Assembly (NCBI GenBank): GCA_045837725.1
Contig: JBEWZL010000232.1
Span: 186,001-250,000 of the forward strand
Direction: 5' to 3'
Length of the DNA stretch: 64,000 bases
Source of the DNA: Vermamoeba vermiformis
Taxonomy: Eukaryota
Shown: piece by piece, positions 19,087-62,557 of the stretch
Position numbering within the stretch: the first letter of the stretch is position 1
Layout of the letters: every line of letters begins with the position of its first letter
Translations under genes and position numbers: made by a program
Notes under the pieces: model-generated
Seen by the model: only the letters and a program-made list of their open reading frames with translations
Databases searched by the model: none
What the model was told of the DNA's origin: nothing

Positions 19087-22000
19087 TTACAGAATATACA
19101 TAGAAATGGCAACAACAGCTGCTACAAGCAAGTCGACTGGTGTATGCATAGCTGCTGAAACCATGGAACCTTGTTGAACGGGTGCACTAACAGGAAGAGC
19201 AGAGACATAAGGGGCGATATCTGTCAATCGGAGTTTAGTCGGATATTTTTATCATGGTTCTTGAAAGCAACTTACCTCCAGTGAATTGATAAGTGAGCGG
19301 ACCAATCAAATTCCAATAATTGATTGATACATAGAACTGCACGGTCGTATTTTTCGCAGCGAGCGAGTACCACGAAGGCACGGGACAAGTGATCGTGGTG
19401 TTGTCAATCAATGTCGCGGGAGTGACGCGTTCATTGCTGTCACCGAACACGCACACCAAGCAGTCAGGGCTCGTGGTGTAAGTGGTCTCGGGGTTGCAGC
19501 CAGTGAACTGCTCGAAGCCTGAGCCTTTGACAGTGATCTTGTTGCCGCCGTCCAATGAACCGCTAGCAGGGGTGACATTGAGAGCACGGACATTGTTCGC
19601 TGTGCAGAGTGTTAGAACGAACATTAAAGTCATTGTTATCCCTTACAATAGACCCTGATAGTAGCCTGGCCCATGTAGACCACATTGTCACTCGACACCG
19701 AGATGTTGAAGGGCTGCGTTGAGTTCATTTGAGGAGTGGTGCATACAGCGAATTCACTCCACTGATTGACCACCAATCGACCTCTGTAGGGCATATCGGC
19801 GTTGATGCGACACCACACCTCATCGGTGACGGTGTTGAAACCAGAAGTGCTCCAAAACACATCGCTGCCGTTCTGTGGCACGGCTGCGGGATAAGGACCG
19901 CGCAACACATGCACTGGTCTGCCTGGGTTTGAAGTAGGGGCCTTGACTGGTCCGTGGGGAGCCCGTACAGGGGCTGTAACAGGGGAGTGGACAGGAGCTG
20001 CAACAGGAGCTCTAACGGGCGCGGAGACTGGTGCAGTGACTGGTGCACGAACAGGAGCGGCAACAGGAGGGGTGACAGGTGGAGTGGTTGGAGGAGTGAC
20101 AGGGGGAGTGACAGGGGGAGTGACAGGGGGAGTGACAGGTGCAGCGGTGGGAGTGAAGTCAGGCAGTGGTGTGGCTGGTCCTTGAGTACCACAGAACATG
20201 CCCGAGGCCAAGCCAGTAGCCGTGAGCGCTTGCACCAATGAGGCACAGTCGGATGAAGTGACAACTTGACCACTCAACGCGCCAGTCACGGGATCGCGCA
20301 GATTGACATTGTTGCTCGAGAGTTCTTGACACGCTTTGATCAAGAAGTCTGCGTGCTGCGCGAAGGTACTGGTGGGCACGTGTTTGGCGAGACCACGGAT
20401 GTAGATGTGGAAGGCTTTGACCAGTCCAACACCTGTCACTGTCCGGCCGTTCAGTGAACCGCCGTCCACGAACAGTGCGTAGTTTTGATTTGGAACGCCG
20501 GAGTTGGTGTGGACACCTCCACTGTCAATTGTGCCGCAAAACATGTAGCTGTCGTCCACTGAGGCAGGATTAAAGAAACAGTTCGGGTTGTACATGTCAC
20601 GAATTCCTGCAATGTTTGTCAATCACTGTTTGACACGTGTCATCAATTACTGCTCGTACGTACCAAGCGTTTGACCGCCAGAGTTGCGCGAAGAGAGCAC
20701 ATTAGTGACTTGATCGCCAATGATCCAGCGTCTGTTGTTATCGGGTATGTAACAGGCACGTGATGTTCTGGGTGGAAAGGCCGTGGGTAGATTCATGAAC
20801 TGTTGAATGGACTCGCCGATAATGTCAGCATAGCCCTCGTTCAATGCACCGCTTTGATATTGATACTGCAAGTTAGCCAAGCCTGAGACATACCCCTGTA
20901 AATGACACGTGTCAATCAACGGTGTCACAAAGTCACCATCCACTTACATGACCCCACTCGTGTGCCACTACGTCAATGCCATTGCCGAGACCAGGGCAGT
21001 AGTACGACGCACCATATGGCGGAATGAATGCAGCGTTAGGGCACTGCCAGCCACCCATGGCCCCGGAGAGAGTGTTGGTGTACATTTTGAACGAGGCACC
21101 GTGCAAGTCCCACGAGTCATAGCCTCCGACATTGTTCATCGCCGTGTACAGCTGACCCGACGCGGCCACGAGTGTGTCGACCTCAGCATTGCCAGTGGTG
21201 CCCTGGCCCTCGCTGTAGATCCACGTTTTGGAGCCGTAGTCGGTCACGTAGCGACTGAGCGCGTTGTGCACGCCAGAGAAGTCATCAATCACTGCACCGC
21301 TGTGTGCGTCCACGAACACGTGATGCACGTCCAAGTGTTCAATGCAGACAGTGGTCACGTGGTAAGTCACGTGATTGGTGCCTGCCTTGCCCTGCGTGAG
21401 GCCTGTGCGGTACACCACGAGCTCGATCTGACTCGCCTCGTATGTCCTAATTAGGCAAGCGATTAGATACGCGCAATCACATGGACTTGATACTCACATG
21501 TTGCTATTGAGTGAAGCACGTGCAATGTCTTTAGCCTCCTCTCGCGTGAGTGTTGGCACCACATCCAAGTGCAGATCAGGAATGATAGTGCTCGTCACTG
21601 ACAAGACTGCATTCTGTTCGTTGAAGGTCACGCGAAGTGCAGTGCCATAGACTTTCAGACCCTTGTAGACCTATGCAACCGTATCAATATTAACTCTAGC
21701 ATACCAAATTAGAAGCCACACGTACCTGATGAAAACTCAGTTGAAAGCGACCGGGGATCTGGAAGTCGTTCGTCTTGTCCATGAATACAAGCTCTTCGTC
21801 CATATTCCCCACGCCCAATTGAGGAGTTCGTTGTAGAAATTCGCGCAAAGAATCGAGCGGGTCAAGTACCGGATCTAGCGCAGCAATTATTAGTAAATGA
21901 AGAATTGTCAGTTGATTAATAGCGTACCTAGTGCTCGCTTCTGGAGCTCACTTTCATCGACGATTACCATATACGCTGTTCCTGTAGCAGGATTTATGCG

Positions 22001-22177
22001 ACTTTCAGCATTGCCAAATCCGCTCTCAAGAAATCGGTTCACGCGAGAAGGATCTGTCGAAAAAACAATTAGAAAATCTTCGGCTTCATGAGTCATACTA
22101 CCTTGGGCGTATGATGATTGCCAGCAGCATGTTACAACTAAAAACAAGGCTAAAACAATGGCAGATCTGTGCTTCAT
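19087..22177 (-). CDS. Secreted thermolysin-family (M4) metalloprotease with propeptide, Pro/Thr linker, IPT/TIG domain and probable GPI signal
   Basis: Signal peptide; FTP/PepSY-like propeptide (VFVDAHSGAVI); NAA motif; DVVAHEWGH; GALNEGYADI; GGVHTNSGVPN; IPT (VTPASGSLDGGNKITVKGSGF); hydrophobic tail VDLLVAAVVAISMYIL*. Confidence 0.88.
20065..20140. repeat. 12-bp coding minisatellite (PPVT linker repeats)
   Basis: AGGGGGAGTGAC x3 at 20101-20136 with degenerate flanking units; encodes the PPVT/APV linker of the M4 protease. Confidence 0.85.
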
Positions 22178-26502: not shown

Positions 26503-26633
26503 CTTCAATCAGACTGTGACACTGTCGAGCTAATGACACGTGTCAAACTGTGAATAGCACGCAAATAAACGAAAAATTTACAATTTAATTTCGTTTATTA
26601 TGTACTAATAAATATATTATAGAGGTCTTTACA

Positions 26634-43837: not shown

Positions 43838-43996
43838 AGACTGTTCTCTACTGTTGTAAATTAGCTGTTTATTCATTGCGCGGCACTGTCTGTTCACCAT
43901 TTGATTGATGTCTCTCTCTCGCTGATGAGTTCTGCGCGCTCAGTGCTGACTGTCACGTGTCCGTCACGACACAACATTGCTCTGCTGCAAGTCCGC

Positions 43997-45347
43997 TTAA
44001 ATGCCGTACATGTCGCGCGTGTTGTTGCGAATGGTCTTCAACACATTGTCCAAGGTGTCACCTTTGAGCTCTGCAATCTTCTGCGCAATGAGTGGAATGT
44101 GCCCGCTGTGACTGACGCCTTTGAGTGGATGAGGGGCCATGTAGGGCGCATCAGTCTCCAACAGAATGCGGTTCAATGGTATCTGTTTCACGGCCTCGCA
44201 CACATCTGCGGCATTGTTGAATGTAATTGCGCCTGTGAAGCCAAAGTACATATTAGGAAATGCCTCGATCAATCGCTTGGCGTGCAGTGCGCTGTCAGTG
44301 AAGCAGTGCAGATGTATCTTGTGCTGCGCGGGCATGTAGTCCTTGAGAATCGTGTACGTGTCCTCTGCGGCACTGCGACTGTGCACCACGAGGGGTTTGT
44401 CGAGCTCCACCGCTTTGAGTATCTACCGCCAATCAGCAATCGAGGTATATGCGCGGTATACCGAGCTAAAAATAGCTTACCTGCGCGATGAATACTTTGC
44501 GCTGCACTTCAGGCTCACTGTGATTGTAGTGATAATCGAGTCCTGTCTCGCCCCACGCCACTGCCTTGGTGTGCTACGGTGCGTCAGTGGCACAGTTCTA
44601 TGAATACACTGCCATGCACTCACCTTCAAACACTCCACGATGCGCTCTTCAATGGAGGCTGTGTAGTACTTGGCGTTGTGCGGGTGAATGCCGAACACTG
44701 TGTGACATCTTAGTTGAGCTCTATTTGACACGTGTCAATCACTTACCGCCCCAGATGTTTTCCTCGGCAAGCAATTCTCTAAATTTAGTAATGTCAATAA
44801 ATAGGTGCAATGCAATGCTGTCAACTTACTGCCACATGCCAAGACTCGGTGACAGAGCTGCTGCGTCACTGAGAACAGATGAGTCAGAGCCACTACAACG
44901 GACCAATCACGTACCAGAACACTGAAATACAGCCCTCAAAGTTGGCTGGAAATTTCTCTGATTGACGGAGCTTGGTGAAGAGTGATTTGTTGTCTTTAAT
45001 GCGCAGCTTTTGAAATACGTATTCGAGGTGGCAATGCGTGTCTATATATAGCTCTTTTGAGCTCACTGTTGGTTCATTTGCTGTTTGAGTGCAGTTGCGG
45101 GCAATGTGACCTTCCTGCAGAATATTTTGTAATTAATTTCTTATTTTATTCGAGAATTAGTCTTTATCAGCAGGCAGACGTTTTGCGATATGTAGTGTTA
45201 TTATATTATTTTTGCCTCAATCCACACCTTGCCACACTGATAACACGTCGGTCCTTGAGATCTGGTGTTATTATTGCTTCTTGTGTTGTTGTTATTTCTG
45301 TACCCTCCTCGTGAGTTACCTCTGCTGTAGTTGTTATTGCGCGACAT
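43997..45347 (-). CDS. TatD-family nuclease (TATDN2-like) with N-terminal RG/N-rich segment and CCHC zinc knuckle
   Basis: IDTHCH, NFEGCISVF, GIHPH, GETGLDY, VVHSR, HLHCF, LLETDAPY; spliced CYQCGK|EGHIARNC. Confidence 0.88.
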
Positions 45348-45521
45348 AATTGCACCGTTGTGGTGTCGATGTTTGGTAAATAAGTGAGAATGGTCGCCAG
45401 GCGTTAATCAATCTCAGATTATCTAATCCCTGAAATTTCCAATCACGTGACGGGCAATGCGCTACGCAACAAGAATGGTACGAACTACTTTATTACAAGG
45501 ACGAGTCAGACATATTTACAC

Positions 45522-48500
45522 TTATTGTTCAAACTGTGCCATGGTACGCTCCACGCGCTCCTCTTGCTTCCTCTTGACGCGCTGTCGCCAAGCGCCGAAT
45601 TTGACGGTGAAGTCGCGCAGACTGATCTTGAGTGCTGCCGCGCACGAGGTGAGATCGTCCATCGACAGCTTGCTGCTCTTGCCTTCTAGAATTGCGCGCA
45701 GCAGACTCATGTCCGTTACAATGCGGCGCAGTTCACCTGTTGACACGTGTCAATACGAGTACTCGACAGCAATCCACGTGACTTACCTCTGAAGAATTGC
45801 GTGCCACCAATCGAGTGTGCGACAGCATAGTCACCCACGACACAAATGTTCATGATCACGTGACGACACTGCCAGGGAGGTGAGTTCAGTGAAACAGTGC
45901 CAAATAAGGCAATACTTACGAGGTAGATGTACTGCACGGCATTCGCGAGTGACTCGCAGTCGTCAATGTTAGCATCAGCTTGACGCGCAATGTGCTTCAT
46001 CTTGGACACGACTGCTTGCTTCAAGCGCACGTCCTTCACATTGCGCTCCTTCTCGTGCATCACGTACATGGAGTAGAAGCTGGCTGCGGTCAGTACACAC
46101 GCACTTGCACGGCAGTTACAGTTACGTACCTCATGTTGTTCTCGAACTGTTGCAGCAAGTTCTCGCGCTCATTCTTGCCCTTGATCTTGTACGTGCACGA
46201 GTAGTGTGAGGGGTGCCAGCCTGCGAGACAGATCCAGCAGAACTGGTACTTGCACGCACTGCAGCTCATGTGATTGCACCCACCGTTCTTCTCGATGGGA
46301 TTGCCGCACTTGGGACAGTCCTTGGTGTACGAGAGCAGCCACTGCAGTGTCTTCATCTCGCGATCAGCTTCAGGGTCGTGCTTGTCGTGTATCTGCTTGA
46401 ACCACTTGAGCTCGTTGCACGTCGAGGGCCAGTGACCTTCGCCCATGCACTGGAAGCACCACACACTGCCGCACTTGCAGAAGATCATGCCTGGCGCGGG
46501 GTGAGCACAGGTAATAAGGGCCCTAACGAGACTTACGTTCACGACCAGGCGCGAGCACGGCAAAGTTGCAGCCAGCGGCAGGACACCACTTGATGTTGGG
46601 ATTGCGCTCGACGAATGATTTGGTCACAAAGCGCACGTACTTGTTGTAGAGCTGCTCGTTGGCGAGACTGGCGAGCAACACTGGATCTATGATGTACTTG
46701 CACTTGTAGGCTGGACACGTGATGTCGTCTGAGGCACCTAATGACACGTGTCAACAACGGGTGTGTGCGATGGCAAGGTGCCAATTACCTTCGTTGATCT
46801 TGAGACTGAGATAGTTGTTGAAGCAGTCGAGACAGTAGAAGTGACGGCACTGCAGTCCGCACATGTGATCGAGCGGGTACTCCTCCAAGCAGCCAGGACA
46901 CTCCATGCTCTGCTCGTAGTACTGACTGTCCTCGCTGCCACTGCTGTCCTGCATCACTCCCACTTCGGCGAACAGCGCGGCCAAGCGACCATTCACTGCA
47001 GCCTCGCGGTAATCGGCGACGAGTTTGTCTGAGGTGAGTTAGTTCTAGTGTCAGTGTATATAGATATGCACGTACTCGAGTCCCATTGATAGTGCGTCAA
47101 CAGCACGCGCAGCACAGCTGTACTGGGCGCAGAGTACTCCGCGAGACACTCCGCGGCACGTTGCAGAGCGAGTGTGCGGTAGTTGAGAATGTCGTGCGAG
47201 TCCAGCACTGAATAGCTCGGCTTGTGCGTCAGTATGTGGCGCATGCTGTCTGCGTAGTCCTTGTTCAGCTCCTCGCGGTCATCGTTGCGACTCGTGGCTG
47301 CATCGTAGCGCACTGAGGGCGCGGTGCACAAGAACTCTTCGGCCACTGCAATCAGACGCGCAATCATCGCACTGCCACGCAAGGTGCGCGCAGTCTGCAC
47401 GAGCAGGTGTTTGAGTCGCTGCAGGGTGCTGTCGCGCAGCTGTGATTCGAGCGAGTCCGTGCGCAAGAGCAGTCGTGGCAAGCGCGCAGGATAGGCCGGC
47501 ACGAGCACGAGAATGAGCTGGAGGTGCAGGGGACGCGGGAAGAGGTGTGCATCCGCGCTGTTCTCGTCGGCTGGGTCTTGCAGTCGCGCGCTGAGCACGA
47601 ACGGCAGCGAGGTGGACTGCTTCAACTTGCCCTCGACGAAATAGCTCTGCAGACTGGCGAGCTCGTCGCGCTGTGCAGTGAGGTACTGCGTGAGGGGCGT
47701 GGCGACACTGACACTGCTCTCATCGAGCTCGGTGTCTTCAGGCACGGGTGTCATGTCATCTTCGACATTGACCTCGTGCAGACCTGCTTTCTCTTGCTTC
47801 AACCGCTCCTCTTCTTGGCGCACCTTGTCGTCAGTCACCACGAGATTGGTGCCCATCATCTTGTGTCGCAGCACGGCCAGTTCTTTCTCGCGGCGCAACA
47901 TGTGAATCAGTTGGCGCAGCTGTGGGGCACGACGCACGGCACGCACTTTGATGGGCTCGTCAGTGGTCCTGTCTGACGTGCGCACGCGGTGCATGAATGT
48001 CGCCAGTGCCGCGCTGTCGTACTCTTTGGTCGGCTCAACACGGCGCGGCAAGGGCTGCACGGGTGGTGCAGTGGTGACGAGTCGGTTGTAGTCGGGCTTG
48101 GACTTGGGCACTGCAATAGGTTCGCGCCACTCTGCTTGCAACATGCGCGCAATCTCCTCGTCCGCGAGCTCTTGATACAGCTTGTGCAGCAGATTGGGTC
48201 CTTGCTCGACTGGTCGCGAGGGCTGTTGTTGTTCAGGGGCCACGAACCAGCCGTCAATCTCCTCCATCATGTGATCGTCCCAGTCGGCGAGGTCATTCGG
48301 ATCTGTGCAGTCAATCAGTGCCGTTCATCACCGCGATATGCGTGGCACTATCGAGTACTCACCGAAGCTGCCCGTGCTGTCAATCTCGTCGTCACTCACT
48401 GCATCGCCCTCGTCCTCGTCCTCGCTCTCACTGTCGCTGGGCAGGGGTTCAATGCCCGGGACTGCAGTGCCCGCATCAGGGTCCTCGAGCAGCAGCAGAA

Positions 48501-49064
48501 TGCACTTGTCGACATCACCATTCACTTGCGCGAGCTTGAGCAAGATGAGCTCGTCACTCGCATCGGGGATCATTTCTTTCACTCGCGGCACTTTGCGCTT
48601 CAGTGCGGCACTGCTGGGCTTCTTTTTCTTCCCTTCCCTCACCTCAGCGTCGGTCTTGGCGTCAGTCGCAGCACCAGACTCATGGCCACTAGTCTGATCT
48701 GCATCTGTCGCGTGTGTAGTCGTCACTTGCGGCTCTGCGGCACGCACTGGTTCTGAGGCACGTGTCACGGGCTCGGGTGTGGGTAGTGGCACTAGTGGTT
48801 CAACAGGGGTCTCGAGTACATATTGCATGGCCACATCGAAGTTCAATTTTGATTTTTTGACGGCGTCCATGATGACTTGCAGCGAATGGTTGGGAAAGAT
48901 CTCGTTCAACTGCAAGATCTGCAACAGGGCGAAGTGAGAAATTTATAATAATTTAGAATTATCAGCGCTATATCAAGCGGAAATTCCAATAGTAATTAAT
49001 TAGAACATATATCACGTACCATTGATTCATACAGCTTTTGCTTTCTCTTTCGTTCGGCATCCAT
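45522..49064 (-). CDS. RBR E3 ubiquitin ligase: CUE-CUE-UIM-RWD-RING1-IBR-RING2-Ariadne-like
   Basis: RING2 CPKCGNPIEKNGGCNHMSC..C.YQFCWIC; IBR KWCPAAGC..CKCG..WCFQC...H; RING1 CPGC..CRHFYCLDC; RWD (ELASLQSYF..YPARLP); CUE-like LNEIFP and VKEMIP segments. Confidence 0.85.
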
Positions 49065-49392
49065 CTTGAGCCGTTAGTCTCTGCAATTCTAAAGTACGGT
49101 GTGTAAGGCTTAGTACGATAAATATTATTGCTGACTATAATCGTGCACGGTAACTAACACGATCAGTTGTGGGTGCTCAAGAAGGTAAAAAATAAATACT
49201 GGTTGTGGTGCAGTCTTGCAACCAAACACGTTCTCAACTAATTCTGCTACCACATTGAGAATAGAGCACATTTCGTATTCGTATAGTGCTAAGATGTGCA
49301 TATACGCGTATGTATCCACAAAGACCGAGAATTCTGGATGTACAACAAGCGCCAGCTTTATAATAACAAACAAGTGAAATGCACGAAACTAC

Positions 49393-50233
49393 TTAGTTCT
49401 CGCCATTGATAGCATCGAGCAAATCGCCGCTCTCAGCTAACTGTTTAACAATGTCAAATCCACCAACCAACTTGCCCTTGACGTAGAGTTGTGGATAAGT
49501 AGGCCAGTTCGAGTACTCCTTCAGTCCATTGCGCACGGACTCGTCTGAAAGAATGTTGAAGTGACCGAATTCAATGTTGCTGTCCTTGAGTATCTTGCAG
49601 AATTTGGCTGAGAAACCGCATTGAGGTGCATCCGGTGAACCCTTGATGAATGCCATGACTGGAGCTTGATTGATCAGTGCCGCCAGACGTGCGTGCAATT
49701 GTTCTTTGCTCGACTCGCTCTTCGGGGCCGGTGCTTGAGCAACACCCGTGGTGACAGCACTCTGCGCGAAGGGCGCTAACTTCTTGACAACTTCAGGGGG
49801 ATTGCTGCCCTTGACACTCTCCGTCACTTCACCTTGCTTGAGGAATAGCACGGTGGGCACTGACTCGACTTTGTACTTCTCAGTCACATCGTCTACTTCT
49901 TCGGCTTCAACCTGTGGAGGAAAAATGAATAATTATTTTTAAAATTGAGAATTGTTTGAAATTGTGTCAATATATATTCTCAATATTCATGGGTACTTTT
50001 TTAAATTAAATATTTACAAATTCTCAGTAAAGAAATAAGTTATAAATGGGATCTGCGGATCGCTTGCTTACAGTGCCAAATTTAATATTGGAATATTGAG
50101 AGGCCAATTGGCCAAGAACTGTGTTCATTTGCTTTGAAGGTTCTGACCAGGCTGCCCAAAAGCTAAGAACTGCCAAGCCTTGCCAGTCTTGAGATTTGAG
50201 TTGAGCCAAGGAGGTAACGGCGGTTACAGACAT
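49393..50233 (-). CDS. GLRX3: Monothiol glutaredoxin Grx3/4 (PICOT), Trx + Grx
   Basis: FWAAWSEPS Trx-like domain; PQCGFS; LKEYSNWPTYPQLYVKGKLVGGFDI. Confidence 0.95.
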
Positions 50234-50504
50234 TGTTATGTGTTGCTGTTATATATTAATGCAAGTAAAATGACTGGACCGACTGCGGAGGCGAGTTTGC
50301 CAAAAACTGAAAACCAGAAAGTTCGAATTGGCAGCCGGAAAATAAACAGGATGACTGACAGTACTTAATAGACGCAATTCTAACTCTCCATTGGATGTTA
50401 TACGAGAAGGGTTCGCCATACGGATGAGTTTCTTTGGTCGCGTACTGGCTTCAGACTATCAAAACAAAAAAAAATTTGTACGCACCATTACCAACAACTC
50501 ACTC

Positions 50505-51260
50505 ATGTCGCAACCACAAGACAACACTACGGGCTTGTTCAAGCATATTTCTTTAAAAGCTCCTGCCAAACCTAAGCTCTCTAATCTGCCGGTATTTCAA
50601 TTGAAGCCTTCATTGACAACCGCGAAGCAGTCCTTTTTATTGTAAGTCCTATTTACTAAGCCGTATGGTACTCATTAGCTTGTATTTTTCAGACCGAAAA
50701 TAGGATTTAATAAGGCTGCCGAGAAAGCATCGTCAGAGCCGATTATTGCGGTAGATGAGGCTCGATCGGAAGCTCCACTGGAACCCCCGAAAACCAACGA
50801 CGCTGAACCATCGAGAAAGAGATCGCTTGAGCCTCCATTTGAGCTTCCTGTCTCGAAGCGAGCCAAAATTCTTGAAGACGCCATTTTTGAGATGGATCAG
50901 GTTGAGCCATTGTCAGTCGAGAGCGTCGAGACTAGTTTCGTAAGTTAGTTCGTTTCTTTGTGGCATATTAAATATTTTAGTTGCAAGAAAAGCAAGCGAG
51001 CGATATGGAGATAGCGCAGTACCAAGACTACTTTGTTGAGAAGAATAACGAGTACGAAAAGACGTTAGACACCATCAACAAAGAGCTTGAAGACATGTCC
51101 GAGGGGCTCAAAGAGCTCGCAGGTATGTTGTTTCAACGCTAGTCTATGCCAACTAACGCGCTCATGGCTAGTTCGACTGCTTACCACCAACAACGAGTTG
51201 CTCACGTACAACAATCCAATCTTCTTCGGACTCAATCCGCACTTGGAGAAGGAAGAGTAA
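50505..51260 (+). CDS. Hypothetical protein, 4 exons, C-terminal coiled coil
   Basis: ATG at 50505; GT-AG introns join open exons ending ..NPHLEKEE* at 51260; no recognised family. Confidence 0.55.
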
Positions 51261-51280
51261 TCTGCCTCGAGTAGCCGTTC

Positions 51281-53603
51281 TTAACGGAACCAATCCCAGA
51301 TTGAACCTTTTGTTAACTTTTCTGTCTCTGGAAGAATAGAACTCGCGTGATGCTTCAAAAACTCTTGTTTCAATTCCTCTAATCGGCGCGCTCGTTCTCT
51401 TTCGCGATCGCGTTGCATTGACTCTTCAATTTGTTCCTGTGTGACTGGTCGAGACTTGAGCAGTTGATTGAAGTCTTCTTCCAACGATGAGTCCAAATCA
51501 TCAATGTGCAGAATGTTGTTGTTGTCATTGTCGAGAATGTAATTGTACGTCATCGTCTTCGGGCTCAGTGCAAAGTTTCCGCTGAACCGAGAGGACGCAC
51601 CGCGCGGTGACTCTTTGCGACCGAACATTGGCTCTTGGCTCAATCCTCGGCCCTTTGCGTACTCTTCGAGGTGATTGGTCATGAGCTGCCACGAACCGCA
51701 GCTTGCTTCGTCTGAAAGTCTATTAGTCCCGTGCTACATACGCCATCAGAGAACATTACCATCTTGTACTATGACACGTTCTTCAGAGATATCGTCAAAA
51801 TCATCCGCCAACAGATCTTCGTTCTCGTGCGAGTACGACAAGTTGATGTCGTCAATACTGCGCTGTCGCTTGTGACGTTTGGACTTGATTGTCACACCAT
51901 TCTCTGCAGGTGCAGCGGGCGCACTGTGTTGGCTGTTGAGACGCTTGCGAATGGAATGTACGGAGAAGTCCTGTGTCTTGATGTAGCCGAGGATGAAGAA
52001 GCAGAAGAAAAAGATGTCTTCTTTGCGACTCTGACGGTCCACGAGTTGATGTCTGCACGTATAATGAGTATTGCACGCACTCGTAATATCAATTATCATA
52101 CCTGAACAAGAGCCAGTCATAGCCAATAGTCAAATACAACATCTCTTTTGCAGATAATGATTTGTGGACTTCACCATCAGCCCACAGCGACAGGCGCAGC
52201 AATGAAATGAACATTGGCGTGCGGTCCCAGCCACTGATACAGTGCACTAACAGGCCACCAGAGGCACTGTCGCAAAGAATGTGCAGCATGAACAGGAGAT
52301 AGTTCTTGGTCAATGTCACGAGGTCCCACAGCTTGTAGTTCTCCCAATCAGCCATCACGAGCTTTTCAAAGCGCTCGTCTAGCCGCAGACTCGCTGGATC
52401 ACTGATTTGATGCCAATCAAAGCGCAGTTTCAACGCTGAGGTGTGTTAGTTGAGCAATATGAGAGTTAGATTTAAGTACCTGAGGCAGGGTCTTTGGCAT
52501 TGAAGTCGCGGAAGAATTCTACACCAGGGTACGGAATGGCAGACACCTTAAATGCTTCGTATCGGCCGTGACTGTCGTTCTTCTCCGAGGAACACACCGC
52601 CACGCCGTACTTCTTCTTGGCATTCTCCACCATCAGATCGCAAATGTGACTCACGCACAGTCGTTGCAACAGTTCTACGTCATACGCTCGACACCGACCC
52701 ATGGTCGATTTGTCTTCAAAATCACGTGCTTGCGTGCGCGGAGTTTTGGGAGTGATGTCCGAGACCTCACTGGGCTTGGCGGTGTAAAAGCTGTCCACGA
52801 CTGACACTGATTGGCATTGCGGTCTTTGATGGAGTTGGTCGTTGTTTGCAACATCATTTCGAGCTTCTGCGACAAGGTGGATGAACGACAGATGTTCTTG
52901 CTGCGCACATCAAATCAGCAACTACAATCACGTGCAAGAGTATTAGCGCTACTCACCCATTGAAGAGTATGACTGGCATCGGGAAGCGAGTTCTGACGCG
53001 TGAAAATCGAGCGAGCCAGAACAGTTCTTTGAGCACTGAGGCATCGTTCACACGCGCTGCAAGGGTGTTAGTTAGTGACACTGCAACAACACTCGATGAC
53101 TAGTGCGTACTGATCGCTGACAGTGTGGCGTCAGGTGAAGTGCGATCTCCGGCCAGCACGTAGAGATCGAGCGGATAAGTGCCGCAGAACTCTCCGTTGT
53201 GATTGGTGATTATATCCACGTGATAATCCTTCTTCAACAGCTCGTAACAAGTGCTGTGTATTATTTTGACCTGTACGTGCATGTTAGAATGTAATGATTA
53301 AAATTGACTCGTGCTTCTAGATTGACTTTTCGACAAAGTATCAACAGTCAAACGAGATTAATTAAAATAACGATACTGTAGTCAATATATAGTAACTCTT
53401 GTTATTTAAATAATATGGCAGTTCAAATTATTGCCAACAAGTTTTAAATTTGTAAAAATTAATCTATTTCAAGGTCTTAGACTCACCCGCTCGTCCTCGC
53501 GATTCCATTTGGTGGTAGTAAAGTCCTTATATTTACAGAAGAAATCGAGGAGGCCTTCAATTTTGCTGTCCCAATCAATTGCTTGCTTTTTGTTGATCTC
53601 CAT
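51281..53603 (-). CDS. MTMR14: Myotubularin-related protein 14 (PI3P phosphatase)
   Basis: ARFSRVRTRFP.PV, DLMVENAKKKYG..VCSSEK, PYPGVEFF, catalytic HCISGWDRT, YDWLLF.H. Confidence 0.94.
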
Positions 53604-54068
53604 CTAACTTGCAAGACAACCAACAAGCATTAATAACTAAGCAGGCCAAATATATAATATAAATAACAAATAGATAAGAGTGGATACACAGGAATCACTC
53701 GGCTGCTGTGGTTTGCGGTTGTTCGCTTTGACACAACTATTGCAACAGATCACGCAAAATATCGTCAGCCAATTCACCCATATTTAAATTTCTTGTATCT
53801 AATGTATTGTTAAGTTGGATTATGAGTTCTTTAAAGTGCCTGCGGGTTAGAAGGGTCAGAGGTATAGAGTTGGATTCATTAATGAATCTGCGTGAGTGTA
53901 TTATTTACAATCAATATTTATTGCCAAGAGCGCAATAAATACAACAATAATGTGGCATTGCTGTATTCAATAATTATTGATGATTTGGTGATATTTTCAA
54001 TTATTTTTGATTTTTAAAAATTCTGGATACCGCTTGTTTGTAACTGAATAATATCCAATAATTGTTTC

Positions 54069-54360
54069 TTATTCGCCCTCAATCTTGTTCTTGCCAAGAG
54101 CCAAGCTTGTGATACCCCAAGCCCAGAGCAAAGAGCCAGCAGCAGCGGTGCCCATCAAAGCGTAGTAGACGGTCTTATCGCGTCCAAAGAGCATGTGAAC
54201 AGGTCTCACTGGCGACAAGGGGGTGTGCAAGCTCTAATAGACAAATCTCTGTTAATACGCGACCTCAACTGCACGAGGGATCTAATATCAGAAAATCGCA
54301 TTCACGTACGTTGATGGTCTTTTGTCGCTTGAAGAAGTTTTGAATGCCAGAGTCAGCCAT
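54069..54360 (-). CDS. Cytochrome c oxidase subunit VIIa-like, 2 exons
   Basis: ~71 aa NFFKRQKTIN..PVHMLFGRDKTVYYALMGTAAAGSLLWAWGITSLALGKNK, matching the COX7a pattern (QK..., L.G..D, one TM helix). Missed by the ORF track. Confidence 0.65.
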
Positions 54361-54463
54361 GACTAGTGGTGTATATGATCAGTATTAATAATGATTGTAG
54401 GGCTGGGCTGGACAGAAAAAAAGACAGGGCAAATTTCCTCCCTGTATGTTCAACACGCGCGCA

Positions 54464-57400
54464 ATGGAAGAGCAGAAGAGCGACACTACGAACAGTTCCA
54501 ATAACAATAATAACAATGTGCAGAGTACTGTCGATGAGTTCGTGAAGAAGCAGAATGAGCTGATCGAGCTTGAAAAACAGGAAGAAGTCGAGAAGATCGA
54601 GCGTCTCCTCGACAGCTTGCCTCGCGCAGTACGTAGTAATTCAACGTTAATTATATCCTCAATATTGCGTGCATCATTGTCGCCACTTGAGAGCTAAAGT
54701 AGTTCGACTAGGAGCTGGAAAAGCGCGGCCTGGCCCTGCTAAACCACGAGATTACTGAGACCGCCACTGGTCTGTACGGACGCGTGCTGGTACGTGCATT
54801 GATGCTACTCGACCCTCGTGTACTCACCGCTGTCACGCACCCAGGTGACACTCGAACCTAAAAATAGAGCCGTGCAGCAACAGAGCGATACTAATAAGGC
54901 AACCAAATTCTCCGCGGGAGATATTGTGGGACTGCGCGCGGTGATCACTGACCCCGGCGCTGATGGACTGCCAAATATAGAGCGCGGTGTTGTGTCGCGT
55001 GTTGCTAAAAATAGAATTCAAATCGCACTGAATCAACCGCCCAATGAGACACTCTCCTCCACGTGGGACGTGGTTCAACTGACCAATCAGGTGACGTTCA
55101 AGCGCATGTCACGTGCACTCGACACCCTGGCGCAGTACACAGGCCCCGCACTGGGCACGGTGCAAGTGCTGCTCGGACAACGTGCCCCCGAAGTCAAGTC
55201 CTTGCCCGTGACTGCTGTGCCCGGACTCAATCCGCCGCAGTGCGAGGCCATTGCATTTGCCCTGGGCGAGGGACCGCTGACCCTGATCGAAGGGCCGCCC
55301 GGCACTGGCAAGACCACCACAGTCGCAGCGCTGATTGGTCAGGCCGTGCGTGCAGGACTGCGCGTGCTCGCGACAGCGCCGAGCAATGTGGCCGTCGACA
55401 ACTTGATCGAGAAGTTGGTGGCACTGCCGGGCCCGAAGATCAGCTTGGTGCGACTCGGACACCCTGCGCGACTGTTGGCGAGTGCCGTGGACTACTCACT
55501 CGATGCCGTGTATCAAGCGTCCAATGTGCGCGAGGTGTGCGAGGACGTGCGCCAAGAGATGGAGCAAGTGCGCGAGGAGATCAAGAGCAGTCGCGGCAGT
55601 GCGCGCAAGGGCAAGTGGGAGCAGTGGCGTGGTCTGCAACGCGAGCTGAAGCAGCGTCAAGTGAATGGTCTGACTGCCCTCGTGCACAGCTGTCAAGTCG
55701 TGCTCGCCACGTGCACCGGTGCCGCAGACAAGCTGTTGACACGCGTGCCAGACTTTGACTTGGTGGTGATCGACGAGGCAGGCCAGGCCCTCAAGCCGCT
55801 CAGTCTCATTCCCATGCTGCGCGGCAAGAAGACCGTGCTGGTCGGTGATCACAATCAACTGCCCCCCACCGTGATGAGCAAGCAGGCTGAGAGTCAAGGG
55901 CTGAGCGAGACATTTTTCGCGGAATTGATCAAACGACACGGCGCGCAGATCAGTCGCATGTTGGTGATTCAGTACCGCATGCACGAGAAGATTATGCAGT
56001 GGTCGTCGCGTGAGTTCTATGACCGTCGCCTCGTCGCTGGTAAGATCACGTGATTTGATTCACTGAACGCGCTTTCATGTGCTATTTTTAGATCCCAGTG
56101 TCGCGCAACGAGTCCTCGCAGATCTGCCGCTAGTGACAGCCAATGAGAACACGACAGCACCGCTGCTATTTATAGACACGAACGGCTGTGGATTGTGGGA
56201 ACTTGAAGGTCCGGACGGGGACTCGAAGGCCAATGAAGGCGAGGTGGATGTCGTGCACGAATGGGTGCAAAGACTGATCGCGAGTGGTCTGACTGCCGAT
56301 CAGATCTCTGTCATCAGTCCCTATTTGCATCACGTCAATCTCCTGCGCGGAAAATTAGCCCCGAAATATCCGAGCATGGAGATCAACACCGTGGACAGCT
56401 TTCAAGGCCGCGAGAAAGAGGCTGTCGTGATCAGCATGGTGCGGTGCAATCGCAACAAAGAGGTACGTGCATCTCGGTGCTGTCACGTGATTGGTCAGTG
56501 CTAAATATAGCTGCGGTAGGTCGGATTCTTGAAAGATTATCGTCGCCTCAACGTGGCAGTGACACGTGCGCGCAGACAGTGCACGCTGATCGGTGACAGC
56601 GAGACACTGAACAGCGATGCATTGTTGCAAAGACTGGTCAGTTATTTCAGTGAACAGGGCGAGCATTGGAGTGCGCAGGAATTCTTGCCAGACGTGCGGT
56701 TCTACAGCGCACCACCGCCTAAGAAGAACGCTAATAACAACACCAAGAAGAAGAAAAACAAGAAGAAACCCGCCGCCAAGGCACAGAACGAGAGCAAGCC
56801 GAGTGCTAATAATAGCACAGCCAACAGCACTAACAGCAATGCTAAAAATAGCAACAGTGAAGCAAAGAACACTGCCGTCAGCAACACTAGCAGTGCCAGT
56901 CACGTGCCAGAGCGTACCCAACCTGTCGCGCAAGATGTCAATGTGACACCTGTCACCGCTACGGCAGTCCCCGAAGTGACACCTGTCGCTGAAGAAATGC
57001 CCAGTGACGACGAGACGGAGGCCAGTGCTACCACGAACAGCACGGCAAACACTGCTGCAAAGAAGAAGAAAAAGAAAAAGAAGCCTGCCAACAAACCAGC
57101 GAGCACGAACACTGCCGCGAAGAAAGACAAACTGACCAATGAGAAAGAGTCCTTCGCGAACCTGACGGACGATGAAGTGCTGGAACAGGCACTCAAGTAC
57201 AAGAATGTCTGTCACTACCCGCAGTGCGACAAGAGCGTGGCAATTGTGGGCTCGGTGTGCGACCACTGCCACTTCAAGTACTGCTATGTAAGCACCTGTT
57301 CACCTGTACGCAGCACGCTAATCCCCCGCACAGACGCACTTCCACTACGAGACACACGGCTGTGGCGCGGCAGCACGCGAATCAGCGCGCAAAGAGTGGC

Positions 57401-57579
57401 TGAATCAGCAGAGCAACAAAAGCAAGCCCAAGTCCAAAGAGTGGCAGGCTGATTACGTGCGGAACAAACTGCACAAGAAGGTAAGTCGCTGTTTGACACG
57501 TGTCATGTGCTAATCGATCGCGTGACAGTTGGAAGAACAGAAAGCAGCGCGCACCAAGCAGCCCAAAGCCAAGAAATAA
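54464..57579 (+). CDS. IGHMBP2: IGHMBP2/Hcs1 Upf1-like SF1 helicase with C-terminal AN1 zinc finger
   Basis: GPPGTGKT, APSNVAVDN, IDEAGQ, GDHNQLPP, QYRMH, TVDSFQGREKE, RRLNVAVTRAR; AN1-type finger C..C....C..C...YC..H...HGC. Confidence 0.93.
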
Positions 57580-57678
57580 CACTCGCGCACTGACCTATCC
57601 ACCATTGTACATAGCTGTCCACACTACAGCACTGTAATAAACACGGCTTATTCACAACAGTTTATTAGTATTTACGTC

Positions 57679-60600
57679 TTATTTGCGCTTGGTCATGCGC
57701 TTCGTCTTGGCCTTGGTGAGCGGATCATTCACCCGCGCTGCAGCACGACGCAGCTTGGCAGGGGTCTCGCTGACCACGGCCTCCGCGCCCTCGTCTTTCT
57801 TGCTCGCTTTGCGCTTGGACAACTTTTGAATGTTGTACTGGGGCTTGGGTGTCTGCTGCAGACGACTCGAGCGACGAATTGTTCCGCCCAAGGACTCACG
57901 TGTGCGCGGCTCTTCGTCGCTGTGCTCGTCGTGCGATGCGAGTGACTGATTGACACTTTGATTGACACTGTCACTCTTGTCCTCGCGACTGACCAGCGAC
58001 TGATTGACACTTTGATTGACACTTGTCTCTTCGGCACTCTCGTCGTCTGGTGGCACGCTGGCACTTTGTTCTTCGCGCGAGTGGTGCGGACTGGACCTGT
58101 CTTTGCTGACACGTGACTGACTGGCACTCGGCTCCTCGCCCTGATCGACATTCATGTTCACGTGCTCGTTCTCAGGCACGTGCTCTTCAGTGACAGCAGG
58201 GCCGGTGAATTGTTCCACAAAGTCGAAGGTCGAAGTGACAGGCGGAATATCTTCCATGTCACTGATTGGCACCTCGGAGATGTGTTCCGTGTCAGGGACG
58301 TTATGTGACTCGGTGTCCTGCACCACACTGGTGGCACGTGGCACGTAGTTGTCAATCCACGCTTCATTCTCATCAAAGTGCTGTTCATCGTGATCGATCT
58401 CATCGGCTTCGACCACGTGCTCGGACAGGTCGTGTTTTGACACTTTGCTTGACACGTCCTCGTCACTGGACAGCTCTTCGATTGGCGCGTCATTGATCAC
58501 GTGATCACTCTCTTCGCTCAACACCTCGTCTGACACGTGATCTGACACGTGATCTTCTTGCATGTCCACGTCATTGCTGTCACTCTGCTCACTTGATTCA
58601 CTGAACAGCGATGATTCACTGCTCAGCTTCGCGTTGTTATTTTTAGTTACAGGTGTCACGTGCTCGCTTTCGTCCTCTGAATCGAGATCTACGACCACTG
58701 TTGCAGGTGCTGGTTTGACATCTTCCATGCGACGCAGTGTCTGTTGCAGTGTCGTGCTCGCTTGTTGCAGCGGAGATTGTGGTGGAGATTGCGGACGCAC
58801 TGATTAGGCAATTAGGAGCGGAATAACGGTGGCGGAATATTTACCTTGTTTAAACGGAGTTCTTTGCTTCAATTCGCTGTCACGTGGTGACTCCTCGGCA
58901 TTTTTGATACCATAATTGGAAGTGACAGGTGTCACGGGGGTGTCAGCAGGTGCAGTCAACAGACCAATCAGGGACTGACGACGCGAGGGACCACCGAGTG
59001 ACATGCGCGAGGATTTGACACCTGTCAATGACATGCGCGGACCACCTGTCAATCGCACTGCTGTCGGAGCTAACAGCGCGAGTGACTTGCGCGGTCTGAT
59101 GGGGCTGTTCACTGAACCAGCGGTCACGTGACTGACGTGACTCGGTCGCTTGAAAGTTGAAGGCGAGGCAGTGACGCTGTCGCTCGGCGTGTTGAACAGT
59201 CGCGGCACGTGACGTTTGACAGCTGATTTGGGTGTCTCGGGCAGGGTTGCTGGCACTTTGACAGGTGCCACGGTGACAGCTGTCAATGCGCGTCGTTGAA
59301 CAGCAGGCAATGTGAGGAGATAGTTCTCGACCAGGGCACTCTGATTGGGATCAGTCACGTGCTTCTTCAGCAGCTCGTGGTGGCACTGCACGGCGTCACT
59401 GACACGACCGCGCTGCAAGTAATACACGAGCAAGAACTGCGCATCACGTGGCTGCGGTGATCGTTGCAAGAATTCTACGAGATACTTGTCCTCGAGGGTG
59501 TCAAGTGGCAGTTCGAAGAGCACATCGAGCTTGTTGTGCGCGTGACAGTATTGGTACAGGTGGTACAGCAGTGTCTCCAACAGCACGGGATCGTACGACC
59601 CTTCGCGTGTGGTGCGACTGATGGCACGCTGATGGACCGGTCAGTGCCATTACCATATTAGGACATGAGTACTTACCACGGCATTGAATGCTTGGTGCAG
59701 CAGATTGTTGTAGAGCAGCACGTCAATGTAGGTGATGACGTCATCAGTGCCCGTGATCTGATCACGTGACTGGTGACCAATCAGCAAGTGCGACTGCAAG
59801 TAGTTGTTCGCAGTGATCACGCGCAGTGCCAGTGCGTACTGCTCGTAGTCGTGCAGCGTCTTCACGATCAGGCGCGTCCACTGCTCCAGCTCGATTTTAG
59901 CGCCGTGCCGCGTGCCACCTGTCAGCAGCGCGACTGCTTCAGTGAACTGATGCGTGTCAAGCAGCCACAGCGCGCGAGTGAGCAGTTGATAGTCCTGATC
60001 GATCATGAAGCTCTGCGCGCAGTCCTCGATCAGGGCCGGACTGAGCTGCAAGTCGTGCAGCAAGTAGAGCAGCACACAGCGCTTCTTCACGATCAGATCT
60101 GCGTGCGTGCGTTGAAACACGTCGACCAGGGCTGACAGACTGCTCGGGGGATAGCTGCTCACGTGATCGGACTCCAGCGAGGATGTCGCGGTCATCGACT
60201 CCCACAGCAGATCTATAAATAGCTTCGTGCCATCACCGTGATCGGTCTGTTGTTCCGTTGACAGATTGACACGTGTCATGTTTTTAATTGTCCAAAAATG
60301 GCGATAATGTCGTTGCTGTCTATCTTTGCGGCGCTGTTTGATCTGCCCATCGAGATTGACCAATGAGGTGCGCACTGACGGATCTACCAGGGCATGTGAC
60401 ACGCACCACAGCACAATCTCGAGAGTCTGGCTGGTCGAGAACATGTCACGTGACTTGTCGTTCAGCAGCTCCATGTGTTCGGCACTGATGTCGCGGCGCG
60501 AGGCGAGTGATTGCAAGAGTGCCAGCAGATCTATAATTAGCACAAACCAGCGCGACATGTCTTCGTGCTGTCGCTCGTGTGACTTGTCATCGGTGTGCAG

Positions 60601-62557
60601 CGGTGTCTTGAGTGCAGTGACAGCTGTCAACGTGTCAATCAACGCCACGTGCTCGGTGACAGTACTTACTGGTCTGTTCGATGCGCGCGACTAATTTGGC
60701 ATAAGCACGTGACAGCCAATCAAAGATGATCTTCGTGTTGGTCAGTGTGTACTCGTGATCCATGCTGCGGTGTGTGATGTCTAAATATGGCATGGTCAGT
60801 CACGCATGTACTAATAAGGCAATATCGATCGCCGTACAGTCCGCGAGCACCGCGAGGAGATTGTGTTCGAGCAACATGTCCCAGTAGTTCATCAGCCGCG
60901 TCACTTCGTCCTCACTGCGCGCACACAGGCCCTGGTCGCACGCCCACGTGTAGAATTGACCAAAATTGGTAAGTCCGCCTGCTCCGCGCTGCGCTATTTT
61001 TGTCAACAATTGTTCCGCGTGCGACTGATAGCTCAAAATGGACACCGCGCGTGGAGTGAGCACGTGGAGTGCACAGCTGAGTGCCACACCGTGCGAGTCA
61101 GGCACGTGATCGAGTGTCACGTGACGACGGAATTCACGCACTGTCATTGGATTGACCCAACATGCCTAAATATGGGAATTAGATGACACGTGTCACACCG
61201 CACTCGACTCACCAATCCCGACAGCTGATCACGTGACTGAGGTGCATCTATTTTTAGCGGATAGCTCTTGAACAGTGCGGGCTGTGCGAGGCCAGTGGAC
61301 TGCCAGTCAAACAGCTCCACGTGACGCGTGATCTGCCACTCAAAGTCGCGCAGGGGCAGTGTCTCCCACACGAACATCACTTGGGGCCGATCACTGCCCT
61401 GGTCGAGGGTCTGCATGCCAATCACGTGACTGTACTTGTTGTTGCTGCCCACGAGCACGCGCTGAAATTCACACTCGAGTCTGGTGTCCTGATCACGTGA
61501 CAGGTGATACAGTGCAATGTTGCTGGAGGACTCGTGATGACATGTTGACGTGTGACAGCTGCCACGTGTCACCCAGAGCCACTCTTCCGTGCCAAGGCGT
61601 TGCACAGCGAGTGCGGTGACTGGTGGCTTGGTGTACTGATCGGTGGTGGTCGCGGACTTGATTTGTTCTGTGAACGGCTGGTTAGTGCCACGTGTCACGC
61701 TAGAGTGCTACAAATAGTACCGTGCAGATCCGAGGCGAGTTGACACGTGAACTGCGTGAGGGACCAGAGCTGCACGCAGCCAAAGCTGAAGCCGACGAGC
61801 ACGCCGTGCTGACTCTCTACCAGGGCTGTGACTGACACACTGCTGCGCTTCAACAGCGTCACTTGATCACGTGAGGTCGGGTACTGCACGTGCTCGCCAG
61901 TCACTGCACTTGCATTCACCACCAGCACGGGCAGGGTGTTGGGTGGCACGGTGCCATCGTACTCGACTGCAGTCACGTGATGGACTTGCATGCGCGCGTG
62001 AGGCACGTGTCGGGCGAGATCAGTGAGCAGCACGTGACCGCCCAATGTACCGAGCAGCAGCGGCAGTGTGAAGTGTGGTGGCACTGTGCCACGCAGCACG
62101 AGGAGCGCGGTGATCACGTGATTGAACTGCACCTGCGTCACCACACTGCCCGTGCGCACATCGATCAGGTACAGTGTGCTGTGTGTGTGCGAGTCTGGCA
62201 CGCGCGCACTAACGAGCAAGTATTTGCGGTGCTGGATGTGCACTTCAGCGGTGGTGTTGATCTCCTGTTGTGCGAGGTGAGGACTAGAGCTGTGGGATTT
62301 TTAATAATTACCATTAATTCATCGTCATCATTCTTGAACGATATTAAGTGTGTTCGCTTGAATATAGACAGATTGAAAATTTGTAGATAATTTTTGGAGC
62401 AAATCCAGGCAATGGTGCCGTCCTGCGCGAATGAGCCACGCAATAACTCCTGTCCCCTCTGCTGCTTATTATTGACTACGGAGGCATCGAATCCAATTGC
62501 TGGATAGAGCTCATGGTGCGCTATGCTCGGTGTTGCAAAAGAAGATCCGATCTGCAT
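57679..62557 (-). CDS. AHCTF1: Nucleoporin ELYS/MEL-28 (beta-propeller + helical ELYS domain + disordered basic tail)
   Basis: YPPSSLSAL, VLLYLLHDL, LTRALWLLD, LFELPLDTLEDKYLVEFL, FLLVYYLQRGR; N-terminal propeller (LVGFSFGCVQLW); tail RRSSRL. Confidence 0.85.

What the first reader, a model, noticed from the sequence alone, without database searches (positions are those of the whole stretch)
20631..61195. Recurrent 12-bp palindrome TGACACGTGTCA, mostly inside tiny introns
Nine exact copies: 20631, 20903, 26534, 44726, 45741, 46742, 57494, 60267, 61184 (far below one expected by chance in 64 kb). Seven lie in short introns, three of them just upstream of the 3' splice site (20903, 45741, 46742); one is between convergent genes and one is coding. 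Spacer variants occur in exons: TGACAGCTGTCA (59274, 60618) and TGACACCTGTCA/TGACAGGTGTCA (370, 36311, 56944, 58923, 59016). Known: TGACAnnTGTCA is the TGIF/PKNOX/MEIS (TALE homeodomain) dimer site; the CG-spacer form also contains an E-box. Alternatives are an intronic splicing element (hairpin, or TGAC branch point) or a footprint of an intron-generating element.
Basis: partly seen in the sequence, partly recalled or inferred. Interest (0 to 1): 0.75.

Follow-up and report, generated by a model that had tools for sequence, protein, structure and literature searches.

The report
Transcription-factor palindrome filling amoeba gene bodies
In this amoeba a 12-letter DNA palindrome shaped like a homeodomain protein's binding site occurs thousands of times inside genes, is almost absent near gene starts and is densest around what look like the centromeres, a pattern that recalls bacterial self-spreading motifs more than ordinary gene switches.

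Summary
In detail: 9 copies in the window (7 intronic, 1 between convergent genes, 1 coding) and 2793 in the 43.3-Mb genome against 4 for the reversed control. It is not a splice signal or transposon footprint: position in introns is scattered and flanks are unrelated. In an 867-kb sample 49 of 65 copies are intronic, but the rule is distance from gene starts: 0 in 71 kb of intron within 600 nt of an ATG, 47 in 100 kb beyond. It also enters coding DNA (9 vs 0.4 after synonymous shuffling). E-box, MEF2, CArG and CCAAT-type words behave alike. All but the CArG-type word are denser in one GC-rich zone per contig, centred on a ~600-bp non-coding element found at one locus in 40 of 40 scored contigs (candidate centromere, 4 kb beyond the window). 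Geometry and flanks match a TALE-homeodomain dimer site, and the genome encodes such proteins. Best reading: a DNA site that accumulates wherever tolerated through a small per-site advantage, most likely a conversion or repair bias towards protein-bound alleles; selection for gene-body or pericentromeric chromatin function is the close rival. Binding, mechanism and centromere identity are inferred, not shown.

The parts
20631..20642 (.). exact palindrome, middle of predicted intron 20607-20663 (- strand M4 peptidase gene)
   Evidence: intron predicted
20903..20914 (.). exact palindrome, 7 nt before the 3' splice site of predicted intron 20896-20947; overlaps the likely branch point
   Evidence: intron predicted
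26534..26545 (.). exact palindrome in the gap between two convergent genes, 32 nt after a stop codon
44726..44737 (.). exact palindrome, 9 nt after the donor of intron 44698-44746 (TatD gene)
   Evidence: read joint 44699-44830 with exon between, 8 reads
45741..45752 (.). exact palindrome, 4 nt before the 3' splice site of intron 45737-45786 (IBR-domain ligase gene)
   Evidence: joint in 4 of 4 runs
46742..46753 (.). exact palindrome, 4 nt before the 3' splice site of intron 46738-46788 (same gene)
   Evidence: joint in 4 of 4 runs
57494..57505 (.). exact palindrome in predicted last intron 57481-57528 (+ strand SMUBP-2-like helicase gene)
   Evidence: intron predicted
60267..60278 (.). exact palindrome in coding sequence of the ELYS gene
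   Evidence: ungapped contig piece 60007-60450
61184..61195 (.). exact palindrome in predicted intron 61166-61212 (ELYS gene)
   Evidence: intron predicted
370..381 (.). CC/GG-spacer variant, coding, 225 nt from an ATG
9208..9219 (.).
36311..36322 (.). CC/GG-spacer variant, coding (DIS3/Rrp44 gene)
56944..56955 (.). CC/GG-spacer variant, coding
58923..58934 (.). CC/GG-spacer variant, coding
   Evidence: contig piece 58845-59373
59016..59027 (.). CC/GG-spacer variant, coding
   Evidence: contig piece 58845-59373
59274..59285 (.). GC-spacer variant, coding
   Evidence: contig piece 58845-59373
60618..60629 (.). GC-spacer variant straddling the predicted 3' splice site of intron 60624-60669
42001..64000 (.). 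left flank of the GC-rich, word-dense zone of contig C232 (GC3 mostly 0.6-0.7); its centre, a non-coding element, lies about 4 kb beyond the window's right end

Best explanation
The palindrome is a DNA-level site for a dimer of a TALE homeodomain protein (PKNOX/MEIS/TGIF type): two TGACA half-sites head to head with a 2-bp spacer. Copies arise one by one through point mutation (shown: flanks unrelated). Each site has a small, position-independent advantage over its non-site allele (inferred; about 6-7 natural-log units of enrichment for the perfect word, about 3 for one-mismatch words), so the word fills any DNA that tolerates it: distal introns, convergent 3' gaps, and codons when the protein allows (shown). 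It is kept out of the first 600-800 nt after a start codon (shown), probably because a bound factor there disturbs the promoter (inferred). Other factor-type words accumulate in the same places, and they and GC content rise together around one element per contig (shown). So the most economical cause is a bias in gene conversion or repair that favours the protein-bound allele, running alongside a GC bias and strongest near the presumed centromere (inferred, untested).
For: Spacer 2 only: 66 sites vs at most 8 for spacers 0-11 in 464 kb. The CC/GG form, which lacks the E-box core of the main form, is the commonest one-mismatch neighbour in introns and is 17 vs 0.7 in shuffled CDS. Flanks favour A/T as in the TGIF1 crystal oligonucleotide. 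Ten TALE homeodomain matches, 5 with the NARRR recognition helix in frame; L070 is closest to PKNOX1, TGIF2LX, TGIF1 and MEIS. 39 perfect copies in distal intron interiors vs 0.003-0.11 expected; one-mismatch 18 vs 0.1-1.0. 7 of 9 peptide contexts compatible in the commoner frame, and 2 of 4 in the other, use the exact codons. No strand bias of the 8-letter sub-words in introns (69/66, 64/67). 121 of 161 long genes have no copy and counts are over- not under-dispersed (chi2/df 1.7). MEF2-type 49 vs 6.8, E-box 10-mer 40 vs 6.5, CArG-type 89 vs 37 in CDS vs shuffles. Distal introns with the palindrome: 12 of 119 within 35 kb of the element, 17 of 778 beyond 70 kb; distal GC3 0.64-0.69 vs 0.46-0.54. 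Two Spo11-family matches.
Against: No binding data. The dominant spacer (CG, 2793 of 4268) is not the GC spacer of the TGIF1 site. No biased-conversion mechanism of this kind was found in print. Factor binding that opens chromatin would be expected to erode, not spread, sites through recombination (recalled). Centromere regions of yeasts are GC-poor and crossover-poor (recalled), so a conversion peak there is unexpected. Per gene, the exact palindrome does not correlate significantly with distal GC3 (rho 0.09, p 0.26, 163 genes), and the GC-rich left end of C3 has no copy in its first 60 kb. The CArG-type word and two other words are not clearly denser near the element. Per-base density is higher in short than in long distal introns (120 vs 38 per 100 kb), which a purely position-blind force does not predict. 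No GC-matched or multivariable test of the positional effects was obtained.
Confidence: 0.42

Rival explanations
1. Same TALE-type site, but kept by ordinary weak selection for a chromatin role in gene bodies: a bound repressor or barrier that suppresses cryptic and antisense initiation far from promoters, or that helps load or hold cohesin at convergent gene ends and around centromeres.
For: The distribution (absent near starts; 33 in 44.6 kb of distal intron in convergent genes vs 11 in 40.5 kb in tandem genes; 6 in 22 kb of convergent gaps, 1 in 63 kb tandem, 0 in 38 kb divergent; peak around the element) resembles cohesin distribution in yeast (recalled). TGIF1 is a repressor (abstract passage). 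HIP1 was argued to be kept by selection for chromosome structure (abstract).
Against: Three quarters of long genes lack the exact word and copies clump. Words of factors that usually activate (E-box, CCAAT types) follow the same pattern. Sites in coding DNA would not be needed where introns are plentiful, yet permissive codons are nearly saturated. Host genes share no evident function. No clear nucleosome-scale periodicity.
Confidence: 0.33
2. The binder is a bHLH or bZIP protein reading the central E-box/G-box with extended flanks.
For: The main form holds the E-box core; five bHLH matches in the genome; other E-box words are over-represented.
Against: Forms without the core are enriched; in distal introns nearly all of the 106 nine-letter half-words come from full palindromes; half-sites also occur as direct repeats. 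bZIP genes were not searched.
Confidence: 0.1
3. An RNA-level intronic splicing element (branch point or hairpin).
For: 49 of 65 copies intronic; 9 of 49 end 4-7 nt before the 3' splice site, where their TGAC can serve as branch point, vs 4.3 expected.
Against: The other 40 are scattered from 3 nt after the donor to hundreds of nt inside; 0 of 341 first introns; coding and intergenic copies; the hairpin is weak (-2.1 kcal/mol) and its mean stem pairing probability is below 0.5 in 18 of 31 short introns.
Confidence: 0.05
4. HIP1-like product of methylation-directed repair at the central CpG.
For: Sharp perfect-match spectrum; seven C5-methyltransferase domain matches at about four loci; such a model exists for cyanobacteria (abstract).
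Against: CpG-free forms and CpG-free companion words are as strongly enriched in coding DNA.
Confidence: 0.05
5. Footprint or remnant of a transposon or intron-generating element.
For: High copy number, mostly in introns.
Against: Best flank identity among 65 sites is 29 of 60, within the random range 27-33; no consistent target duplication or extended arms; two motif introns are spliced at the same place in a lineage whose reads are mostly 90-95% alike.
Confidence: 0.02

Closest known systems
TGIF1 / PKNOX2 / MEIS homodimer site (TALE homeodomains)
   Same: Two TGACA half-sites head to head, 12 bp, A/T flanks; TGIF1 was crystallised as two monomers on such a 16-mer (PMC6158717, passages); PKNOX2's strongest dimer is head-to-head with a 2-base overlap of a seven-letter seed (PMC5934673, passages).
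   Different: CG spacer dominates; sites avoid promoter-proximal DNA instead of sitting in regulatory regions; thousands of near-perfect copies, some in coding sequence; binding untested.
Cyanobacterial HIP1
   Same: Highly iterated palindrome, far over-represented within and between reading frames, with no gene-level function evident (abstracts of PMC5861425 and PMC4390886).
   Different: Eukaryote; 12 bp and shaped like a transcription-factor dimer site; one of several words; excluded near gene starts; no cognate methyltransferase shown.
Pasteurellaceae/Neisseriaceae DNA uptake sequences
   Same: Arise by point mutation, accumulate by molecular drive until gene function limits them, under-represented in constrained coding DNA (PMC7811141, passages).
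   Different: No uptake step is known here; the bias would have to act in conversion or repair between chromosome copies.
Budding-yeast CDEI/Cbf1 site and short inverted-repeat regional centromeres of some yeasts (recalled, no call)
   Same: An E-box word of the CDEI type is about tenfold denser around a single, often inverted-pair, element per contig.
   Different: Here the words are spread over tens of kb of genes and are absent from the C232 element itself; the zone is GC-rich rather than GC-poor.

Membership tests
TALE homeodomain dimer site (TGIF/MEIS/PKNOX) | two TGACA half-sites head to head with a 2-bp spacer | tested here: met
   66 at spacer 2 vs at most 8 at spacers 0-11; 4268 vs control 33
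TALE homeodomain dimer site (TGIF/MEIS/PKNOX) | spacer of C/G bases tolerated, E-box core not required | tested here: met
   91 of 98 sample sites have a C/G spacer; CC/GG form 17 vs 0.7 in CDS
TALE homeodomain dimer site (TGIF/MEIS/PKNOX) | same preferred spacer as the TGIF1 site | tested here: not met
   CG is 2793 of 4268; TGIF1's canonical oligonucleotide has GC
TALE homeodomain dimer site (TGIF/MEIS/PKNOX) | cognate protein with TGACA-type recognition helix and basic N-terminal arm in the genome | tested here: met
TALE homeodomain dimer site (TGIF/MEIS/PKNOX) | bound by that protein in vitro or in vivo | not testable with these tools
   needs SELEX, DAP-seq or CUT&RUN
promoter cis-element of a regulon | enriched near gene starts of functionally related genes | tested here: not met
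   3 of 63 copies within 600 nt of an ATG, in 45% of the DNA; absent from top promoter words; hosts unrelated
HIP1 / uptake-sequence type iterated motif | over-represented tens- to hundreds-fold, inside and outside reading frames | tested here: met
HIP1 / uptake-sequence type iterated motif | arises by point mutation, flanks unrelated | tested here: met
HIP1 / uptake-sequence type iterated motif | cognate methyltransferase or uptake machinery | tested here: inconclusive
   C5-methyltransferase domains present, specificity unknown; CpG-free forms enriched
HIP1 / uptake-sequence type iterated motif | sites conserved between related genomes | not testable with these tools
   no relative's genomic DNA found; relatives seen only as proteins
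branch point / intronic splicing element | fixed distance from the 3' splice site and confined to introns | tested here: not met
   9 of 49 at 4-7 nt; 16 of 65 outside introns
Introner / DNA-transposon footprint | shared flanks, target duplications, lineage-specific introns | tested here: not met
   lineage specificity checked for only 2 introns
centromere (for the element at the zone centre) | one locus per chromosome | tested here: inconclusive
   one locus in 40 of 40 scored contigs, but 39 of 79 candidates were not scored and contigs are not shown to be whole chromosomes
centromere (for the element at the zone centre) | CENP-A occupancy / kinetochore | not testable with these tools
   needs ChIP or Hi-C

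The most novel reading that the evidence does not exclude
This amoeba has a eukaryotic molecular drive for transcription-factor sites: alleles bound by its own DNA-binding proteins (TALE, bHLH, MADS and others) win in gene conversion or repair. A catalogue of binding sites has thus been written through introns and into proteins, strongest in GC-rich zones around short, sequence-conserved centromeres, one on each of about 79 small chromosomes.
Probability: 0.3. Interest if true: 0.92.

Novelty: new variant of a known kind. Interest (0 to 1): 0.76.

Why it matters
It would be a eukaryotic counterpart of HIP1 and uptake sequences, made of transcription-factor sites. It bears on the open question of whether factor binding shapes codon and amino-acid choice, here with 4- to 26-fold effects for the strongest words and a clear spatial rule. 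It lets the binding specificities of an amoebozoan's factors be read from its genome. It also yields precise candidate centromeres in a group where they are not mapped (the Acanthamoeba Hi-C paper states that positions are still needed; passages), and GC peaks where yeasts have troughs. Whether drive or selection is the cause, both become testable with strain resequencing and one ChIP experiment.

Tried and rejected
Search for a close relative's orthologous DNA: metagenome scan gave best 39-52% protein identity, no close relative among 80 loci kept of 528; viral-contig scan gave 3 single matches, not examined further. So conservation of sites was not tested. An independent-half-site model (C preferred 4:1) fitted pooled counts but failed once introns and exons were separated (49:5 in introns). 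Nucleosome-scale periodicity of word spacing: no clear peak. Hairpin: inconsistent. Transposon footprint: rejected. Sequence differences could not be polarised and only 40 of 720 rows were shown, none at a motif, so they say nothing on drive; read depth was not used to rank genes. No RNA holder was on record among indexed runs; raw reads of the same species label were laid instead. A link between the element and rDNA: only a 78-bp 18S fragment beside the C3 copy. Two look-ups of earlier findings returned nothing. Paper searches without a relevant hit: (two Ebola papers in the listing, not read). Not obtained: a GC-matched and multivariable test of the positional effects, a test of distance to a neighbouring gene's start, and a computed expectation for the number of compatible peptides; these stay open.
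Full report
Observation. The nine copies are at the stated places; chance expectation in the window is 0.01-0.16. The genome G000 (43.3 Mb, 309 contigs; window = C232:186001-250000) holds 2793 copies against 4 for the reversed control, and 4268 with any 2-base spacer against 33. The 18S gene has an insertion of about 500 nt and a stretch I recall as the Vermamoeba vermiformis primer site, so the organism is probably that amoeba (recalled, no database match). The published draft-genome paper has no occurrence of 'motif' or 'centromer' in its main text (PMC7125106, passages; supplements not seen).

Gene models. I trained a gene finder on 867 kb (2% of the genome): C3:1-560000, C232:166001-270000 and 21 pieces of up to 10 kb. 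By eye it recovers 14 of the 15 joints listed (48 more joints were not shown); all class counts below rest on these predictions. The sample over-represents two GC-rich zones. Of 65 copies 49 are intronic, 9 coding, 7 intergenic: 27.7, 1.6 and 5.4 per 100 kb.

Not a splice signal, not a footprint. Copies start from 3 nt after the donor to hundreds of nt inside; 9 of 49 end 4-7 nt before the acceptor (4.3 expected), where they can double as branch point. Motif introns have normal length (median 57 vs 58). Hairpin pairing is inconsistent. Flanks of 65 sites are no more alike than random, with no target duplication.

The real rule is distance from gene starts. 0 of 341 first introns carry it, against 46 of 1676 later ones, and no motif intron begins within 569 nt of its ATG. 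Introns within 600 nt of any ATG: 0 in 71 kb; beyond: 47 in 100 kb (hand estimate p about 1e-11). Composition cannot explain this, since the Markov expectation even in distal introns is at most 0.11. Convergent gaps hold 6 in 22 kb, tandem 1 in 63 kb, divergent 0 in 38 kb; distal introns of convergent genes 33 in 44.6 kb, tandem 11 in 40.5 kb. It is the top de novo word of distal introns (106 vs 0.6) and absent from the top promoter words.

It enters coding DNA. One frame is barred by a stop codon on both strands, which explains much of the intron excess. Against synonymous shuffles the palindrome is 9 vs 0.4 and the CC/GG form 17 vs 0.7. Where the protein allows it, 7 of 9 contexts in one frame and 2 of 4 in the other use the exact codons; for the CC/GG form 10 of 14, 6 of 10, 1 of 4 and 0 of 1. 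A hand estimate from amino-acid frequencies gives about 2-3 such peptides by chance, which suggests that the word has also changed proteins; this was not computed formally, and only one coding copy is backed by RNA.

It is one of a set. E-box, MEF2, CArG, CCAAT-type and unnamed words (family names recalled) are 1.4- to 12-fold over-represented in CDS, the top 8-letter words on both strands about equally, and most are thinner near ATGs; a Myb-type word is not (150 vs 180).

One hot zone per contig. C3:415-480 kb and C232:228-270 kb are GC-rich, and per 100 kb hold the E-box word 197 vs 21, the CC/GG form 12 vs 0.9 and the exact palindrome 15.9 vs 5.9; the CArG-type word rises little (30 vs 22) and two words not at all. 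Both zones are centred on a shared non-coding element. Its ~600-bp core matches one locus in each of 40 contigs, often as an inverted pair; 79 candidates were found and 40 scored. 43.3 Mb divided by 79 is about 550 kb, near the size of the large contigs seen (inference). Four rare words mapped genome-wide lie within 40 kb of the element in 28 of 30, 39 of 43 (two E-box words), 32 of 51 (CC/GG form) and 15 of 23 (flanked exact palindrome) cases; hits on contigs without a known element were dropped (27 of 57, 57 of 100 listed, 49 of 100 listed, 33 of 56). Near the element GC3 reaches 0.64-0.69, poly-A runs are lost, histidine rises from 2.1 to 3.3%, and 12 of 119 distal introns carry the palindrome vs 17 of 778 on the arms. 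The window's right third is in such a zone; its 140 copies per Mb compare with 64 genome-wide. The centromere reading is inference; no telomeric repeat was seen at the start of C3.

Identity of the binder. Only the 2-base spacer is enriched; every position is nearly invariant (at most 5 per neighbour vs 98, both strands counted); flanks prefer A/T. This matches the site on which two TGIF1 homeodomains were crystallised and the PKNOX2 head-to-head dimer. The genome has ten TALE matches, including PBX-like (my reading) and PKNOX/MEIS-like proteins, with relatives at 83-92% identity in public data. Five bHLH matches keep an E-box binder possible.

Mechanism. Shown: DNA-level symmetry, point origin, filling of tolerant positions, exclusion near starts, co-variation with other words and, by zone, with GC. 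Inferred: a per-site advantage of a few units of scaled strength. Drive is slightly favoured because most long genes lack the word, copies clump, activator-type words behave alike and codons are saturated. Selection for a repressor, barrier or cohesin-related role is nearly as good, because the map mirrors recalled cohesin maps. Against drive: no significant per-gene correlation with GC3, a GC-rich contig end without copies, and higher density in short introns.

Novelty. The site type is known; this distribution was not found in the searches made (open-licence papers and preprints only). It works like HIP1 or uptake sequences without being shown to belong to either. Verdict: real, genome-wide, not about splicing; new variant of a known kind; interest 0.76.

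Noticed in passing
L057:4131-4723 (G000:C232:254131-254723), about 4 kb right of the window; C3:445.8-446.9 kb: Non-coding ~600-bp element with GC-rich ends; the gap holding it is CpG-poor (o/e 0.51). One locus in 40 of 40 scored contigs (79 candidates), 79-92% identical, often an inverted pair, at the centre of each GC-rich zone: candidate centromere or domesticated small transposon.
   Followed up: partly
G000:C3:415-480 kb and C232:228-270 kb: GC-rich zones appear rich in conserved housekeeping genes (judged by eye from predicted proteins) and have fewer predicted distal introns (1.7 vs 3.8 per kb CDS) and few poly-A runs.
   Followed up: partly
L011 near 6960-7080 (G000:C3:446962-447063): A 78-bp fragment 99% identical to the start of the 18S rRNA gene lies beside the element.
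   Followed up: no
L172 (G000:C11:679063-681372): 18S rRNA gene with an insertion of about 500 nt, probably a group I intron (class recalled).
   Followed up: no
G000:C309:33071-34564 and 55063-56556: Two small-subunit rRNA matches in inverted orientation on one contig, possibly organellar or an assembly overlap.
   Followed up: no
L072/L079 (G000:C263:146.9-150 kb): Two TALE homeobox genes about 1 kb apart in divergent orientation; L072 holds three palindrome-type sites.
   Followed up: no
L076 (G000:C184:374.6-377.7 kb): Predicted TALE homeodomain protein with a cysteine-rich C-terminus that looks like PHD fingers (label recalled, not scanned).
   Followed up: no
window:42201-62200: Run X21, labelled as the same species, is mostly 90-95% alike to the window, and proteins at 83-92% identity exist in public data: the species label seems to cover deeply diverged lineages.
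   Followed up: no
window:50932-51184: A 253-nt joint of the - strand gene downstream of its predicted stop, lying across exons of the + strand neighbour: overlapping 3' ends with a UTR intron.
   Followed up: no
sample-wide: An AGATC-centred word is over-represented in promoters, proximal and distal introns and CDS, and is not raised near the element; promoters have their own small set of words.
   Followed up: partly
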